Positions 2,209 to 10,743 are shown, numbered from the stretch's first letter. The stretch is DNA of 10,861 nucleotides from a virus (IMGVR_UViG_2713896896_000006:1-10861), one strand, 5' to 3'. Notes: generated from the letters alone by a model not told the origin. Numbers and translations are program-made.

Positions 2209-2280
2209 GGGTCCTCCCGGTGGGGTGGCCTGCCACGGGGCGGGAGCGTCGCGGAAAAAGGCTAGTTTTTGAAATTTCAT
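2209..2280 (+). other. Lambda-like cos site, copy 1 (cosQ-like GGGTCCT at 2209-2215; predicted cosN 12-mer GGGCGGGAGCGT at 2238-2249)
   Basis: Aligns with the recalled lambda right-end/left-end junction ACGGGTCCTTTCCGGTGATCCGACAGGTTACG|GGGCGGCGACCT|CGCGGG; sits between the lysis cassette and the Nu1-like gene, as in lambdoid genomes. Lambda sequence is from memory. Confidence 0.65.
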
Positions 2281-2283
2281 TCG

Positions 2284-2370
2284 TCATCACCACTACTGTA
2301 ATGGATTGATATTACAGTGGTTTTATTTTTATGGTGTCGATTTTGATTATTTTTTGTTCACCACTAACAC
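2284..2370 (+). repeat. cosB-like region: three ACCACT(A/G) elements (two direct, one inverted) between cosN and the small terminase start
   Basis: CACCACTACTG at about 2288, inverted ATTACAGTGG at about 2311-2320, CACCACTAACA at about 2359; position matches the lambda cosB R-site block. Confidence 0.45.
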
Positions 2371-2423
2371 CGTTTGCCTAAAGTTGTTCGCAAGATGCAT
2401 GTTTAAAACATTCCGGAGCGGGT

Positions 2424-2918
2424 ATGGATCGAGAGTTAAAAAATCTGACGCTGAATATCAGTCAACTGGCGGCACTGTCAGGTGTACATCGCCAGACTGC
2501 TGCGGCAAGGCTGCAAAATCTACCCGTTGCAGGGGGGCATGAAAGCAACCTCAAGCTTTATCGGGTGGTTGATATTGTGTCGGCATTTCTGGCATTACCA
2601 CCGCCGGTTGCAGAAGGCGAAATGGACGCGCATGAGCGCAAAGCCTGGTATCAGTCTGAACGTGAGCGTCTTAAGTTCGAACAGGAAACGGCACAACTCA
2701 TTCCGGCCAGTGATGTCAGACGGGAGTTTGCCATCTGGGCAAAAGCGGTCGTGCAGGTGCTGGAGACATTACCGGATATTCTGGAACGTGACTGTGGTCT
2801 GCAGCCTGCCGCTGTGAGCCGTGTTCAGTCCATTATTGATGATCTGCGCGATCAGATAGCCCTGCGGGTGACCGAAGCAGGTGCGGATGATGAGGAGGAA
2901 TTACAGCAGGAGGAGTAA
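2424..2918 (+). CDS. Terminase small subunit, lambda Nu1-like
   Basis: N-terminal HTH-like segment (LNISQLAALSGVHRQTAAARL) and acidic C-terminus comparable to Nu1; GGAG Shine-Dalgarno; stop overlaps the large terminase start (TAATG). Confidence 0.75.
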   Translation: MDRELKNLTLNISQLAALSGVHRQTAAARLQNLPVAGGHESNLKLYRVVDIVSAFLALPPPVAEGEMDAHERKAWYQSERERLKFEQETAQLIPASDVRREFAIWAKAVVQVLETLPDILERDCGLQPAAVSRVQSIIDDLRDQIALRVTEAGADDEEELQQEE

Positions 2919-3913
2919 TGCTGAATCAGGAAACCGCAAAGGCAGCACGAACCGATTCAGGTTATATCCTTCGCGCACCGAGACGAATGCGGGTTGCTGA
3001 TGCCGTTGCTCAGTATATGCGGGTGCCCATGGGGGCAGGGAACTCAGTCCCGTGGGATCCGCTGGTGGCACCGTATGTTATTGAGCCGATGAACTGCCTG
3101 GCCTCGCGTGAATACGACGCAGTGATATTTGTTGGCCCGGCACGAACCGGCAAGACTATCGGCCTGATTGACGGCTGGGTGATTTACAACGTGATTTGCG
3201 ATCCTGCGGATATGCTGATCATTCAGATGACGGAGGAAAAAGCCCGCGAACACTCCAAAAAACGACTCGCCAGAACGTTTCGCGTCAGCCCGGAAGTGGT
3301 CAGTCGCCTGAGTCCGAACAAAAATGACAACAACGTTTATGACAGAACATTCCTTGCTGGCAACTACCTGAAAATCGGCTGGCCGTCAGTCAATATCATG
3401 TCCTCATCAGATTATAAATGCGTGGCGCTGACGGATTATGACCGTTTTCCGGAAGATATTGATGGCGAGGGGGATGCTTTCTCTCTTGCCTCAAAACGTA
3501 CCACCACATTTATGTCCAGCGGTATGACGCTGGTGGAGAGTTCCCCCGGCAGGGATGTGAAGGATGTGAAATGGCGACGGACTTCACCGCATGAGGCTCC
3601 ACCAACCACGGGGATACTGTCGCTCTATAACCGTGGCGATCGCCGTCGCTGGTACTGGCCCTGTCCACACTGTGGTGAGTTTTTTCAGCCCTGCGGCGAT
3701 GTGGTTGCTGGTTTCCGTGATATTGCCGATCCCGTGCTGGCAAGTGAGGCGGCTTATATTCAGTGTCCTTCCTGTTCAGGACGGATTATGCCTGAACAAA
3801 AACGTGAGCTGAACGGACGTGGGGTCTGGTTGCGGGATGGTGAATCCATCAATGCGGATGGCAGTCGTTATGGTGATCCCCGACGCTCACGTATTGCGTC
3901 ATTCTGGATGTAG
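2918..3913 (+). pseudogene. Terminase large subunit (lambda gpA family), truncated to the N-terminal 331 aa
   Basis: Walker A-like VGPARTGKT; CPHCGE motif (WYWPCPHCGEFF versus lambda FHVACPHCGEEQ); tracks lambda gpA up to about residue 330 (RIASFWM versus VTFHIWTAY) then hits a stop; the remaining ~300 codons are absent and the integrase gene begins 160 bp later. Confidence 0.8.
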
Positions 3914-4074
3914 GGTACATTTCTTACCTGTTTTTATGTTCTGGTGTCGTTTTGTAGTCTTTTCAATGAGTTGTGATTTTTTGTGTTTCCTCTCTTTACT
4001 TGATAATGAGTTAGTTTATCGCTTGTTATCGACTTGAAAGGACTACATGACGGACTAAAAAATGAGGGCGATAG

Positions 4075-5313
4075 ATGCCGGTAAAGCCATTAACCGTGAC
4101 TGAAGTTAAGGGAATGAAACCACGTGAAAAGGACTATGCCGTTTATGATGGATTCGGTTTATTGCTGAATGTGAGTAAAGCTGGTGGGAAAGTGTGGCGT
4201 TTCCGTTATAGCCATCCGATAACGAAGAAACGGCAGACATACACGATAGGGCGTTTTCCTGAATTCTCACTCGCGGAAGCACGGGAAATACGTGATGAAC
4301 TTCGGCGAATGATTGCACGTGGAGTTGATCCAGTGACAGAGAAGAAAAATCGTAAAATTGAGATGTCACTAAAAAATCTACAAACATTTGAAGCTGTTGC
4401 TAATGCATGGATCGCTTTTAAAAAGGGATCGGAATTGCGGAAACCTACGCTGTATAATATCGAATATGAAGTATACAAATATCTTGTTCCTTTCTTTGGT
4501 AAGTACAGCATAGAGAAAATTACAGCGCCAGTAGCTATTAATGCTCTGGATGCCGTATCCGATAAGAATGCGTTGCAAAAAAAATTAATATCAAGATTAA
4601 ATGAAATTATGAATTACGCTGTAAATTGTGGAGCATTGAAAACGAATCCATTACTTAAGATAAAAACTGCATTCACAGGAAAGAAAAATAAATCATTAGC
4701 TGCACTACCTATTGAAAGATTGCCTGAATTTCTGAGCTGGTGGGATAGTGTGCCTCATAAGTATCAAATAGCTCACAATGCACTTTTATTCCAGATATTG
4801 ACAATGGTCAGGCCAGGTGAGGCGATTAAAGCAGAGTGGTCCGAGATTGATTTTGATTCTGGCTTGTGGATTATCCCCGCGCATAAAATGAAATGCCATC
4901 GTGAACATGTTGTGCCTCTCTCATCACAGGCTATTAGAATCCTAAGAACAATGCAGAAAATAAAAAGAGGGCGTTATATATTTTTTTCCTCCAGAACAAA
5001 AGATGCTCCTATGGGAAAGAATACTATCAATACCCCAATTGCTGCCAGCAAGTTCAAAGGGATTGTAACGTTACACGGTTTTCGTTCGATGTGGAGTACG
5101 CTTTTAAATGAGGAGGGTTTTAACCCTGATGTTATTGAGGCTGCATTAGCACATAAAAGTGGTGATAAAATAAGAGATATTTATAATAGAACTACTTATT
5201 TAGAACAACGCAAAATTATGATGCAATGGGTAGGAGATTTTTTTGATGAGGCGAGAAAAGGGGTAATTAATAGATCCGGTGGTAAGAAAGGTTTGAGAAT
5301 AGTAAATGGTTGA
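4075..5313 (+). CDS. int: Tyrosine recombinase, P4-type integrase
   Basis: N-terminal arm-binding-like domain (KDYAVYDGFGLLLNVSKAGGKVWRFRY...TIGRFPEFSLAEAR) and C-terminal catalytic region (HGFRSMWST...H..R..YNRTTY); GAGGG Shine-Dalgarno. Confidence 0.9.
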   Translation: MPVKPLTVTEVKGMKPREKDYAVYDGFGLLLNVSKAGGKVWRFRYSHPITKKRQTYTIGRFPEFSLAEAREIRDELRRMIARGVDPVTEKKNRKIEMSLKNLQTFEAVANAWIAFKKGSELRKPTLYNIEYEVYKYLVPFFGKYSIEKITAPVAINALDAVSDKNALQKKLISRLNEIMNYAVNCGALKTNPLLKIKTAFTGKKNKSLAALPIERLPEFLSWWDSVPHKYQIAHNALLFQILTMVRPGEAIKAEWSEIDFDSGLWIIPAHKMKCHREHVVPLSSQAIRILRTMQKIKRGRYIFFSSRTKDAPMGKNTINTPIAASKFKGIVTLHGFRSMWSTLLNEEGFNPDVIEAALAHKSGDKIRDIYNRTTYLEQRKIMMQWVGDFFDEARKGVINRSGGKKGLRIVNG

Positions 5314-9952: not shown

Positions 9953-9960
9953 TGTGAGGA

Positions 9961-10212
9961 ATGACCAGAAAAACCAGAGATAAGACAGCGCCAAAATATA
10001 AAGCGTTAGACATGACAGAGCACGCCTTAAAGGTGGCAATCAGAACGATAGACCGCCATACCGGGGAAGGATACGCGAAAGCACACCCCGAACTGATAAG
10101 CGCATTCATGGCAACGGCGGCAGCAAACTTTGCCACGCTGACAGAACGGGAGATTGCCGAAGCGGAACAGGTGACAACCATCAACGTTAAAACCGGAGAG
10201 CAGACAGCATGA
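9961..10212 (+). CDS. Hypothetical protein (83 aa)
   Basis: ATG directly after the iterons; stop overlaps the ssb start (ATGA). No family recognised. Confidence 0.5.
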   Translation: MTRKTRDKTAPKYKALDMTEHALKVAIRTIDRHTGEGYAKAHPELISAFMATAAANFATLTEREIAEAEQVTTINVKTGEQTA

Positions 10213-10631
10213 CAGCACAGATAGCGGCTTACGGGCGGCTGGTGGCTGACCCACAGTTAAAGACCACCAGCAAGGGCACACAAATGGCTATGGCGAGCAT
10301 GGCGGTCCTCCTGCCGTGCAGCCAGGCAGATGACGGAACGGCGACGATGTGGTTATCCGTCCTGGCGTTTGGCAGACAGGCCGACGCACTGGCAAAACAC
10401 CACAAAGGCGAACTGGTGAGCGTGGCGGGTAACATGCAGGTGAGCCAGTGGACAGGCCAGAACGGCGAAACGCGGCAGGGCTGGCAGGTTATCGCAGACA
10501 GTGTAATCAGTGCCAGAACGGCGCGACCGGGCGGCAAAAAAGGTCAACAGGGCCAGGCTACTGACGCACTGAACAGGGCAAAACAACAGGCGGGGAATGA
10601 TGATCCGTACGGGGATAACATACCGTTTTAA
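10209..10631 (+). CDS. ssb: Single-stranded DNA-binding protein (SSB-like OB fold)
   Basis: N-terminal OB-fold pattern (YGRLVADPQLKTT..G...A..S.AV, W.SV.AFG..A, KG..V.V.G......W....G); Gly/Gln-rich linker; C-terminal DDPYGDNIPF resembling the SSB DDDIPF tip. Confidence 0.7.
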   Translation: MTAQIAAYGRLVADPQLKTTSKGTQMAMASMAVLLPCSQADDGTATMWLSVLAFGRQADALAKHHKGELVSVAGNMQVSQWTGQNGETRQGWQVIADSVISARTARPGGKKGQQGQATDALNRAKQQAGNDDPYGDNIPF

Positions 10632-10645
10632 GCAACGAGTAACAG

Positions 10646-10669
10646 AAGCCGGAGCAATCCGGCTTTTTT
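10646..10669 (+). terminator. Intrinsic terminator after ssb
   Basis: AAGCCGGA / GCAA / TCCGGCTT followed by TTTTT. Confidence 0.75.
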
Positions 10670-10671
10670 AT

Positions 10672-10743
10672 GGGTCCTTCCGGTGTAGTGACCTGCCACG
10701 GGGCGGGAGCGTCGCGGAAAAAGGCTGGTTTTTGCATTTTCAT
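10672..10743 (+). other. Lambda-like cos site, copy 2 (GGGTCCT at 10672-10678; predicted cosN 12-mer at 10701-10712)
   Basis: About 72-bp imperfect direct repeat of 2209-2280 with an identical GGGCGGGAGCGTCGCGGAAAAAGGCT core; flanks differ and the downstream ACCACT elements of copy 1 are absent. Confidence 0.65.

What the first reader, a model, noticed from the sequence alone, without database searches (positions are those of the whole stretch)
2209..10743. Two directly repeated lambda-like cos sites bracket a small cos-to-cos unit carrying int, alpA, rep, ori and ssb
The same cosQ/cosN-like core occurs at 2209-2280 and 10672-10743 in the same orientation, with predicted nicking sites (2238 and 10701) 8463 bp apart. 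Terminase cutting at both would release a cohesive-ended molecule holding a small terminase, integrase, regulators, replication ATPase, origin and SSB. That is the genetic content of a cos-packaged phage satellite, not of a phage. A single unit is far below what lambda-sized heads accept, so packaging would need multimers or small capsids. The alternative is that copy 1 belongs to the prophage and copy 2 to an inserted satellite that mimics its helper's cos.
Basis: partly seen in the sequence, partly recalled or inferred. Interest (0 to 1): 0.85.

Follow-up and report, generated by a model that had tools for sequence, protein, structure and literature searches.

The report
Phage satellite inside helper's terminase gene
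The two repeated cos (DNA-packaging) sites are real, but they do not bracket a mobile unit: one belongs to a lambda-like prophage and the other to a 10.7-kb phage satellite inserted in the middle of that prophage's large-terminase gene, a recently described "helper-embedded" arrangement that here uses a new target site and a different integrase lineage.

Summary
The 72-nt direct repeat (2209-2280 and 10672-10743, 90% identical, 8463 bp apart) is real and is a lambda-type cosQ/cosN. The predicted nick positions, 2238 and 10701, coincide with the first base of the deposited genomes of phages cdtI and Tritos. The cos-to-cos segment is not an element. The window is a mEp460-like lambdoid prophage (lysis genes, cos1, terS, terL) whose GpA-type terL is cut after codon 331 by a 10,669-bp PICI-type satellite. 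The satellite carries int, alpA-like, Bro, RepA helicase, iterons, ssb and cos2, and beyond the window a protease-capsid fusion, a third cos, a terS paralog and a 93-aa gene. It is bounded by a 7-bp core, CTGGATG. Joining the flanks restores an in-frame terL that exists uninterrupted in 1333 of 5426 complete E. coli genomes. It is a helper-embedded PICI (Tommasini et al. 2023), but at a terL site that paper does not list, with an integrase only 25% identical to the founder's and without that clade's attP motif. cos2 is a near-copy of the whole cdtI-type cos region, not of the resident helper's. Excision and packaging are inferred, not shown.

The parts
598..1131 (+). Helper prophage lysozyme (lysis cassette)
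   Evidence: Pfam Phage_lysozyme E=1e-24
1376..1891 (+). Helper prophage Rz-type spanin
   Evidence: Pfam Phage_lysis E=3e-49
2209..2280 (+). cos1: helper prophage cosQ (GGGTCCT, 2209-2215) and cosN; predicted 12-nt cohesive end GGGCGGGAGCGT at 2238-2249
   Evidence: Aligns to lambda cos. About 99% identical to phages mEp460, phi458 and 569R4. The cdtI and Tritos records start at the base equivalent to 2238.
2281..2423 (+). Helper cosB-like region, mEp460 type, between cosN and terS
   Evidence: By position, as in lambda. 96-100% identical in other mEp460-type helpers. No TerS-binding data.
2424..2918 (+). Helper small terminase (DUF1441 family, 164 aa)
   Evidence: Pfam DUF1441 E=3e-41; PHROG 141 terminase small subunit E=7e-74
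2918..3913 (+). N-terminal half (331 aa, ATPase domain only) of the helper GpA-type large terminase, cut by the satellite; TAG stop at 3911-3913 comes from satellite DNA
   Evidence: Pfam GpA_ATPase only. Intact homologue is 700 aa with ...RIASFWMEGPAAAYQT.... RefSeq marks the homologues 'missing C-terminus'.
3904..3910 (+). attL core CTGGATG (identity block shared with attR)
   Evidence: Same 7 bp at L003 5561-5567 and 16230-16236. Joining the flanks gives an in-frame terL found intact in 1333 of 5426 genomes.
3911..4074 (+). Satellite left arm of attP, with doubled arm-type repeat gTTTATCGCttGTTATCGAc at 4013-4032
   Evidence: TTATCGC repeats at -100, +109 and +119 of the reconstructed attP, conserved in four loci. 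No terminator predicted between the terL fragment and int.
4075..5313 (+). Satellite tyrosine integrase (412 aa)
   Evidence: Pfam Arm-DNA-bind_3, Phage_int_M, Phage_integrase. 25% identity to the 11capE integrase.
5326..5529 (+). AlpA-like HTH regulator/excisionase (67 aa)
   Evidence: PHROG 66 excisionase/regulator E=9e-7; weak Pfam HTH_17; one RefSeq homologue named AlpA family
5588..6169 (+). Bro-N domain protein (Bro zone)
   Evidence: Pfam Bro-N E=2e-18
6386..7055 (-). Two divergently transcribed ORFs: 147 aa of unknown family (6386-6829) and a 64-aa Arc/YlcI-like protein (6861-7055)
   Evidence: PHROG 228 Arc-like repressor for the 64-aa ORF; no family in four libraries for the 147-aa ORF
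7195..8347 (+). Icd-like protein (7195-7401), three small ORFs, DUF4222 protein (8048-8347)
   Evidence: PHROG 6196; Pfam DUF4222; gene calls
8344..9759 (+). RepA-type replicative helicase (AAA_25, 471 aa)
   Evidence: Pfam AAA_25 E=5e-44; RefSeq 'helicase RepA family' in homologues
9757..9951 (+). Iteron set, presumed satellite origin: AAAAAGTGGG(T/G)A(G/A)TAAAA at about 84-bp spacing, with an exact 26-nt pair
   Evidence: the repeat finder families D2 and D10; TRF. Position downstream of rep as in Gram-negative PICIs (PMC10111431).
9961..10631 (+). 83-aa conserved ORF and SSB (10209-10631)
   Evidence: Pfam SSB E=1e-15; PHROG 1231. 85% nucleotide identity to the same genes of 11capE.
10639..10671 (+). 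Terminator-like hairpin with U-run directly abutting cosQ of cos2
   Evidence: -16 kcal/mol, z = -5.0. The same arrangement occurs at cos3 and at the cos upstream of rpp in an EcCICFT073-type PICI.
10672..10743 (+). cos2: first of two satellite cos sites; cosQ and cosN; predicted cohesive end GGGCGGGAGCGT at 10701-10712, identical to the helper's
   Evidence: The cdtI and Tritos records start at the base equivalent to 10701.
10744..10861 (+). cdtI-type cosB-like region downstream of cos2; continues past the window end
   Evidence: 92.7% identity over 233 nt to the phage cdtI cos region up to its terS start; 93-96% to HannyBb and Tritos; unrelated to the helper's cosB

Best explanation
The window is the junction between a mEp460-like lambdoid prophage and a 10.7-kb PICI-type phage satellite. 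The satellite is integrated, co-oriented, inside the prophage's GpA-type large-terminase gene, between its ATPase and nuclease halves. cos1 is the prophage's own packaging site. cos2 is one of two cos sites carried by the satellite.

Shown: the insertion, its 7-bp core, the restorable terL reading frame, the satellite gene set, and the lambda-type cosQ/cosN with a cosN identical in helper and satellite.

Inferred, by analogy with the experimentally studied helper-embedded PICI 11capE and the cos-PICI EcCICFT073:
1. After induction, helper late transcription reads through terS and the terL fragment into int and alpA, since no terminator is predicted between them.
2. The satellite excises at CTGGATG and thereby rebuilds terL, so terminase cannot be made until the satellite is free.
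3. The satellite replicates from its RepA, iteron and SSB module.
4. The helper TerL cuts the satellite's cosN, which matches its own. Specificity comes from the region downstream of cosN. cos2 carries a complete cdtI-type cosB, usable directly by cdtI-type helpers. cos3 carries a diverged mEp460-type cosB next to the satellite's own TerS paralog, which sits in the slot where EcCICFT073 has Rpp and presumably redirects the helper terminase.
5. The DNA is packaged either as about 4-mers (42.7 kb against 44.5 kb for mEp460) or as monomers in small heads built with the satellite's protease-capsid paralog.
For: - Split terL: only GpA_ATPase at 2918-3913. The missing GpA_nuclease half follows the satellite in L001, L002 and L004.
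- att sites: attL and attR share CTGGATG, and the element is 10,669 bp in L003, which is 100% identical to the window.
- Empty site: the in-silico empty site reads in frame and occurs uninterrupted in 1333 of 5426 complete genomes.
- Site consistency: int-alpA occurs in 90 of 5426 genomes. In 36 viral-contig loci with at least 76% integrase identity, it follows a TerL fragment ending at the same codon, in TerL alleles 54-99.6% identical.
- Helper identity: the helper module is about 99% identical to viable phages mEp460, phi458 and 569R4.
- cos: both copies align to lambda cosQ/cosN, and phage genome records start at the predicted nicks.
- cos2 matches the cdtI cos region at 92.7% over 233 nt. 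cos3 has an mEp460-type cosB and a TerS paralog 68% identical to the helper TerS.
- An EcCICFT073-type PICI has the same layout (hairpin, cos, Rpp, 93-aa gene) and shares RepA, SSB and Icd proteins with this family.
- Published precedent for helper-embedded PICIs, with sequential excision shown experimentally: PMC10111431.
- Published precedent for cos-PICIs with two cos sites and a non-helper cosB: PMC6739421.
Against: - No excised form was found: the predicted attP junction has 0 exact matches in viral, genome and metagenome collections.
- No particle or induction data exist for this element.
- Neither satellite cosB equals the resident helper's cosB. cos3 is only 74-76% identical to it, and its cohesive end differs from cos2's by one base. 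Which site, if any, works with this helper is open.
- The satellite TerS paralog has no detectable sequence relation to Rpp, so the Rpp analogy rests on position only.
- Some composites are visibly decayed, for example the IS insertion and frameshifted protease in L016. Individual copies, including this one, may be immobile.
- The window's own contig stops 118 nt after cos2. The satellite's right part is read from L003 (identical over the window) and L004.
Confidence: 0.85

Rival explanations
1. One reading: the 8463-bp segment between the two cos sites is itself the satellite unit, released by terminase cutting at 2238 and 10701.
For: Two co-oriented cos sites with identical cosN. The segment holds int, rep, ori and ssb.
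Against: - The segment contains helper terS and half of helper terL, and lacks the satellite's capsid gene, cos3, terS paralog and right arm.
- The element's ends are att sites in terL, with abundant empty sites.
- In other genomes the same satellite sits behind helpers with a different cos type. The cos1-cos2 pairing is therefore an accident of insertion.
- While both cos sites are on one molecule, the resident terL is broken.
- At 8.5 kb it is about 19% of a mEp460 genome (44,510 bp). Established knowledge of lambda terminase is that the terminal cos is cut efficiently only when the head is nearly full.
Confidence: 0.03
2. Dead composite: a defective prophage disrupted by an integrative element. 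The cos sites are relics, and nothing here is mobilised any more.
For: No attP junction in public data. Some relatives carry IS elements, frameshifts or truncated int. The window itself cannot show whether the helper is complete.
Against: - All satellite ORFs are intact in the window and conserved at 94-100% across many genomes and several helper lineages, with one precise target codon. This implies repeated recent integration events.
- cosN is perfectly conserved between helper and satellite.
- L001 and L002 show complete helper head and tail modules.
Confidence: 0.1
3. cos2 is only passenger DNA, a captured cdtI-type cos fragment whose terS has been lost. Packaging in this family runs solely through cos3 and the satellite's TerS paralog, or, in the STEC variants, through the site after the capsid gene.
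For: - The cdtI-type copy ends exactly at the former terS start, which is degraded (ATG GAG to GTG TAG).
- Late-gene capture by PICIs is documented (PMC10111431).
- In EcCICFT073 only one of two cos sites is needed (PMC6739421).
- cos3 occupies the position of the functional EcCICFT073 cos, upstream of the TerS-derived gene.
Against: - cos2 keeps a cosN and 12-nt end identical to the helper's, whereas cos3 has a substitution inside the cohesive end.
- cos2 with its full cosB is conserved at 94-95% in every window-type satellite.
- The satellite does occur in helpers with a cdtI-type cos or TerL.
Confidence: 0.25

Closest known systems
Helper-embedded PICIs (HE-PICI; founder Eco567.11capE in prophage 50icd; Tommasini, Mageeney and Williams 2023, PMC10111431)
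   Same: [quoted passage not shown]
- The same zone order (int-alpA, Bro, replication, late), its own capsid-gene paralog, and a cos resembling the helper's.
- The ssb and 83-aa, Icd and DUF4222 regions are 83-90% identical in DNA to 11capE.
   Different: - The target is a GpA-type terL at codon 331. The paper's A-gene sites are all in the Terminase_1 profile, and neither our core nor 'GpA' appears in its att files.
- The integrase is only 25% identical (85 bits, against the paper's 400-bit cutoff).
- attP lacks the clade's doubled TGTATTGC motif and has TTATCGC repeats instead.
- The late zone carries a protease-capsid fusion and a TerS paralog.
EcCICFT073-type cos PICIs with Rpp (Fillol-Salom 2018 and 2019; PMC6092414, PMC6739421)
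   Same: - Two cos sites with phage-like cosQ/cosN but a cosB unlike the helper's.
- A hairpin abutting cosQ, with a TerS-derived gene just downstream of one cos, followed by the same 93-aa gene family (74% identical).
- Shared RepA, SSB and Icd proteins.
   Different: - These elements are chromosomal (at phoQ), not inside a prophage.
- They use a lambda Nu1-derived Rpp (E=2e-31 to PDB 6HLK). Our element instead has a full-length DUF1441-family TerS paralog with no sequence relation to Rpp.
- The integrase is only 22% identical.
- The capsid gene is lambda E-type, not a protease-capsid fusion.
cos-type SaPIs such as SaPIbov5 (PMC8569155)
   Same: The satellite carries the helper's cos and a paralog of the helper capsid protein. 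In SaPIbov5 that paralog (Ccm) redirects capsid size.
   Different: Gram-positive lineage, chromosomal att site, no sequence relation. Capsid-size redirection is untested here.
Lambda cos (cosQ-cosN-cosB) and the cos of phages cdtI, Tritos and mEp460
   Same: cosQ GGGTCCT, the cosN flanks ACG|GGGCGG...|CGCGG, a 12-nt 5' end, and a position just upstream of terS.
   Different: The central bases of the cohesive end differ (GGGCGGGAGCGT against lambda GGGCGGCGACCT). TerS belongs to the DUF1441 family, not the Nu1 family, so the cosB elements are unrelated to lambda's R sites.

Membership tests
Helper-embedded PICI (configuration, PMC10111431) | Integrated within, and disrupting, a late gene of a prophage, co-oriented with it; excision would restore the gene | tested here: met
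   terL is split at codon 331. The joined flanks are in frame and occur intact in 1333 genomes. All genes are co-oriented.
Helper-embedded PICI (configuration, PMC10111431) | Gram-negative PICI organisation: int-alpA, Bro zone, replication zone with ori, late zone | tested here: met
   int, AlpA-like, Bro-N, DUF4222, RepA, iterons, SSB, then capsid/protease, terS paralog and 93-aa gene.
HE-PICI integrase clade (PMC10111431) | Integrase close to the 11capE integrase (survey cutoff 400 bits by TBLASTN) | tested here: not met
   85.5 bits, 25% identity.
HE-PICI integrase clade (PMC10111431) | Doubled motif tgTGTATTGCantgTGTATTGCa in both attP arms | tested here: not met
   No TGTATTGC-like site (up to 1 mismatch) in the reconstructed attP of four loci. 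The 11capE control shows it in both arms. Our arms carry TTATCGC repeats.
HE-PICI integrase clade (PMC10111431) | One of the 14 (15) catalogued late-gene sites | tested here: not met
   The catalogued A-gene sites are Terminase_1:132, 245 and 246. 'GpA' and 'ttctggatg' are absent from the held supplements; the main spreadsheet is truncated in the held copy.
Helper-embedded PICI (behaviour) | On induction: composite excision, replication, then satellite excision | not testable with these tools
   Only an indirect probe was possible: attP junction searches found nothing.
PICI (SatelliteFinder core set, PMC10085698) | Integrase, AlpA-type regulator, primase/replicase, capsid-related gene and small terminase, without tail or lysis genes | tested here: met
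   All five are present between attL and attR. There are no tail or lysis genes inside the element.
Rpp-type cos PICI (PMC6739421) | Encodes an Rpp protein | tested here: not met
   The satellite TerS paralog finds no Rpp chain in the PDB at E up to 10. The positional counterpart in L020 hits RppC at 2e-31.
Rpp-type cos PICI (PMC6739421) | cos with phage-like cosQ/cosN and a cosB different from the helper's | tested here: met
   cosN is identical to the helper's. cos2's cosB is cdtI-type. cos3's cosB is 74-76% identical to the helper's.
Lambda-type cos site | cosQ heptamer and a cosN that yields a 12-nt 5' cohesive end | tested here: inconclusive
   The sequence features are met, and the record ends of cdtI and Tritos coincide with the predicted nick. 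Actual cleavage cannot be tested here, and I did not verify how those records' ends were determined.
Lambda-type cos site | cosB with TerS-binding repeats between cosN and terS | tested here: inconclusive
   Short repeats exist (TCACCACTA twice after cos1; TCTGTTTT(T)CACC repeats after cos2). There are no binding data, and the TerS family differs from lambda's.

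The most novel reading that the evidence does not exclude
This family is a second, independently evolved lineage of helper-embedded satellites. Its integrase clade is unrelated to the published one, and its 53-56% relatives also sit inside phage tail modules. Its two cos sites would form a deliberate multi-helper kit: each copies the complete cos of a different lambdoid lineage (cdtI type, mEp460 type, Stx1-prophage type). 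All these lineages share the same terL target codon, so the satellite could hop between helpers and be packaged by whichever one it lands in. In STEC it would then gate terminase production of Stx1a-converting prophages.
Probability: 0.3. Interest if true: 0.6.

Novelty: new variant of a known kind. Interest (0 to 1): 0.45.

Why it matters
Helper-embedded satellites were described only in 2023, from a single integrase clade. A second lineage hitting the large-terminase gene would show that parking inside the helper's packaging gene evolved more than once. It would also provide a natural switch in which a prophage cannot make terminase until its parasite has left. The family occurs in about 1.7% of complete E. 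coli genomes, including O157:H7, O121, O145, O111 and O103 strains. In at least one O157:H7 strain it interrupts the terminase of an Stx1a prophage, so it may affect how readily Shiga-toxin phages are produced. Practically, such composites are mis-annotated as defective prophages with a "pseudogene" terminase, and satellite finders miss them.

Tried and rejected
- Tandem PICIs or an assembly duplication as the source of the repeat: rejected. Only 72 nt are shared, the flanks differ, and complete genomes show the same layout.
- The 93-aa terminal gene, or the DNA before attR, as a remnant of the terL N-terminus (an aberrant-excision capture model): no similarity. Homology to the helper covers cos plus terS only.
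- The satellite TerS paralog as an Rpp homologue: no sequence support.
- P4-type immunity RNAs (Rfam C4, isrK) reported for some PICIs: none found. The only hit was a sub-threshold MicX match.
- Defence-system content of the Bro-zone ORFs: nothing in PADLOC or NCBIfam.
- attP junction in viral, GTDB-genome and JGI metagenome collections: 0 hits each.
- My first cos regex missed divergent sites, so I replaced it with a sensitive alignment.
- Literature searches for an Stx-prophage terminase interrupted by a satellite, and for this att site, found nothing specific.
- The test 'each satellite copies its own helper's cosN' holds only partly. 11capE shares 258 bp at 90% with its helper's cos, but its cosN centre differs.

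Full report
**Observation.** The window holds one long direct repeat: 2209-2280 and 10672-10743, 72 nt, 90% identical, 8463 bp apart. A cosQ..cosN pattern with up to 3 mismatches matches only these two places and none of 200 shuffles. Both copies align to the lambda cos junction fetched from NC_001416. They share lambda's cosQ heptamer GGGTCCT and the cosN flanks ACG|GGGCGG......|CGCGG. Independent support comes from deposited phage genomes. The cdtI record ends ...CCTGCCACG and begins GGGCGGGAGCGTCGCGG. The cdtI and Tritos records both start at the bases equivalent to 2238 and 10701. I did not verify how those authors fixed their ends.

**What surrounds the repeats.** Upstream of cos1 lie a phage lysozyme and an Rz spanin. 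Downstream lie a DUF1441-family small terminase (PHROG 141) and a 331-aa ORF that matches only the ATPase domain of GpA-type large terminases. This cos-terS-terL block is about 99% identical to the viable lambdoid phages mEp460, phi458 and vB_EcoS-569R4, where TerL is 700 aa. Directly after the truncated terL come a tyrosine integrase, an AlpA-like HTH protein, a Bro-N protein and two divergent small ORFs. These are followed by an Icd-like protein, a DUF4222 protein, a RepA-type helicase, iterons, an 83-aa ORF, SSB, a strong hairpin and cos2.

**The window ends inside an inserted element.**
- The window is a whole draft contig (BBVE01000046.1). L003 is 100% identical over all 10,861 bases and runs further; L004 is 98.3% identical.
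- Beyond cos2 these loci carry a ClpP-protease/major-capsid fusion (57% identical to the helper's own), a third cos-like site, and a second DUF1441 small terminase (68% identical to the helper's). A 93-aa gene follows, then the missing GpA nuclease half of terL, and then the helper portal, capsid and tail genes.
- attL and attR share the 7-bp block CTGGATG (window 3904-3910; L003 5561-5567 and 16230-16236), giving an element of 10,669 bp.
- Joining the outer flanks gives ...RIASFWMEGPAAAYQTW... in frame. That uninterrupted sequence occurs as a single aligned piece in 1333 of 5426 complete E. coli genomes.

So the window shows a satellite integrated in the helper's terL. cos1 is the helper's cos and cos2 is the satellite's. 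The 8463-bp interval is a chimera of helper and satellite DNA.

**Distribution.**
- The int-alpA module occurs in 90 of 5426 complete genomes, many of them STEC.
- In 36 viral-contig loci whose integrase is at least 76% identical and which have enough upstream DNA, int follows a TerL fragment ending at the same codon. All but three also show the attL core, although the TerL alleles range from 54% to 99.6% identity.
- In O157:H7 strain ECP19-198 the interrupted terL belongs to an Stx1a-converting prophage.

**Relation to what is known.** Tommasini, Mageeney and Williams (2023, PMC10111431) described helper-embedded PICIs. For the founder 11capE they showed composite excision, then replication, then satellite excision. 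[quoted passage not shown] Our element has that configuration and zone order, and shares 83-90% DNA identity with 11capE in parts of the replication zone. It differs in three defining respects:
- Its site is in a GpA-type terL. The paper's A-gene sites are in the Terminase_1 profile, and neither 'GpA' nor our core occurs in the held att alignments.
- Its integrase is 25% identical (85 bits) to the 11capE integrase, against a 400-bit survey cutoff.
- Its reconstructed attP lacks the clade's doubled TGTATTGC motif, which my control recovers in 11capE. It has TTATCGC repeats at -100, +109 and +119 instead.

I found no paper describing this site. More distant relatives of the integrase (53-56% identity) also lie co-oriented in phage tail modules. 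L056 is a PICI-like element between a tail tube gene and gpU. This hints at a second integrase lineage directed at late genes.

**The cos sites.**
- Every satellite of this family that I fetched has two internal cos-like sites, one after ssb and one after the capsid gene.
- In the window type, cos2 keeps a cosN identical to the helper's. Downstream it is a 92.7-96% copy of the complete cos region of phages cdtI, Tritos and HannyBb, running up to the point where cdtI's terS would start. There ATG GAG has become GTG TAG.
- cos3 has a diverged mEp460-type cosB (74-76%) followed by the TerS paralog. Its cohesive end differs by one base.
- Helpers of the family include mEp460-type, cdtI-type and a third, Stx1-prophage type of cos. 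The satellite's cos types do not always match the current helper. In L004 the same satellite sits in a cdtI-like terL.
- An EcCICFT073-type PICI at phoQ (L020) shares identical RepA, SSB and Icd-like proteins with one member (L018). It has the layout hairpin, cosQ/cosN, Rpp (E=2e-31 to PDB 6HLK), 93-aa gene.
- EcCICFT073 is known to carry two cos sites with a non-helper cosB, recognised through the TerS-derived Rpp (PMC6739421). Our TerS paralog occupies the Rpp slot but has no sequence relation to Rpp.

**Mechanism (inferred).**
1. Helper late transcription enters the satellite. No terminator is predicted between the terL fragment and int.
2. Excision at CTGGATG rebuilds terL, so terminase appears only after the satellite is free.
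3. The satellite replicates from its own module.
4. Helper TerL cuts the matching cosN. Specificity comes either from the helper TerS on a cognate cosB or from the satellite's TerS paralog on cos3.
5. Four units (42.7 kb) approximate a mEp460 genome (44.5 kb). Alternatively the capsid paralog makes small heads.

None of these steps has been observed. The predicted attP junction is absent from the viral, genome and metagenome collections scanned.

**Verdict.** The main interpretation is wrong, and the stated alternative is right. The thing itself is a helper-embedded PICI of a known kind with a new target site, a new integrase lineage and an unusual two-type cos repertoire.

Noticed in passing
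L003 14865-15575 (about 4.0 kb beyond the window's right end): A third cos-like site (overhang GGGCGGGAGAGT; GGGCGGGAGCGG in L001 and L002) with an mEp460-like cosB, followed by a satellite-encoded full-length TerS paralog. The paralog is 68% identical to the helper TerS and sits where EcCICFT073-type PICIs have Rpp.
   Followed up: yes
L016 4489-5715 and 11995-24547 (NZ_CP066759, E. coli O157:H7 ECP19-198): The same satellite family interrupts the large terminase of an Stx1a-converting prophage. That helper also has an IS1203 insertion and a frameshifted head protease. STEC variants of the satellite lack the TerS paralog.
   Followed up: partly
L056 7569-19315; L059 9390-17001: Integrases 53-56% identical to the window's lie co-oriented inside phage tail modules. 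In L056 the element sits after a tail tube gene, with gpU on the far side. In L059 it sits after a tail assembly chaperone. Both elements have PICI-like content (D5 primase, and in L056 an E-type capsid, AlpA and a Nu1-type TerS homologue).
   Followed up: partly
L020 20822-23093 versus L018 17005-19276: An EcCICFT073-type PICI at phoQ and a terL-embedded satellite carry the same RefSeq proteins for RepA helicase, SSB and Icd-like (identical WP accessions). Among satellites with the same integrase, the replication gene is either a RepA helicase or a primase. This points to free module exchange between embedded and chromosomal PICIs.
   Followed up: partly
window 10639-10671; L003 14837-14858; L020 25547-25568: A strong GC hairpin with a U-run (z about -4 to -5) abuts cosQ at both satellite cos sites and at the cos upstream of rpp in the EcCICFT073-type PICI. 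It is absent at the helper's cos1. It may be a terminator of the upstream operon or part of satellite cos function; this is unresolved.
   Followed up: partly
L003 about 12535-12545 (equivalent to about 25 nt past the window end): The cdtI-type cos copy in the satellite ends exactly at the position of cdtI's terS start codon, which is degraded (ATG GAG to GTG TAG). A whole phage cos region was captured and its terS then lost.
   Followed up: yes
L011 18059-18316 versus 2920-3177 (E. coli NRG857c, 11capE in 50icd): The published 258-bp, 90% match between 11capE and its helper's cos is reproduced. However, the centre of 11capE's cosN differs from the helper's (GGGCGTCAGGCG against GGGCGGCGACCT), unlike the identical cosN seen in the window.
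   Followed up: no
L017 about 12985-13005 and about 23415-23435: In this locus attL carries an extra T (..TTTCTTGGATGTAGGG) and attR lacks it (..CTTCTTCTGGATGGAGG). This places strand exchange at or to the left of the C(T)TGGATG block, and shows integration of a TTGGATG-type attP into a CTGGATG-type attB.
   Followed up: partly
window 6386-6829 (- strand): A 147-aa ORF transcribed against the rest of the satellite, next to an Arc/YlcI-like 64-aa ORF, has no match in Pfam, PHROGs, NCBIfam or PADLOC. It is absent from several related satellites and so is possibly accessory cargo.
   Followed up: partly
window 1 and 10861 (contig ends): The window is an entire draft contig. It starts inside a lysis cassette shared by many lambdoid prophages and stops 118 nt after cos2, inside the cdtI-type cos copy. 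These look like assembly breaks at repeats, which suggests the source genome holds further prophages with these modules.
   Followed up: no
L014 1-20 (LR595868.1, mEp460_4F5): This linear phage record starts 5 nt before the predicted nick and lacks 3 nt (CGT) of the cohesive end relative to the window and other mEp460-type phages. This is probably an artefact of assembling across cohesive ends.
   Followed up: no
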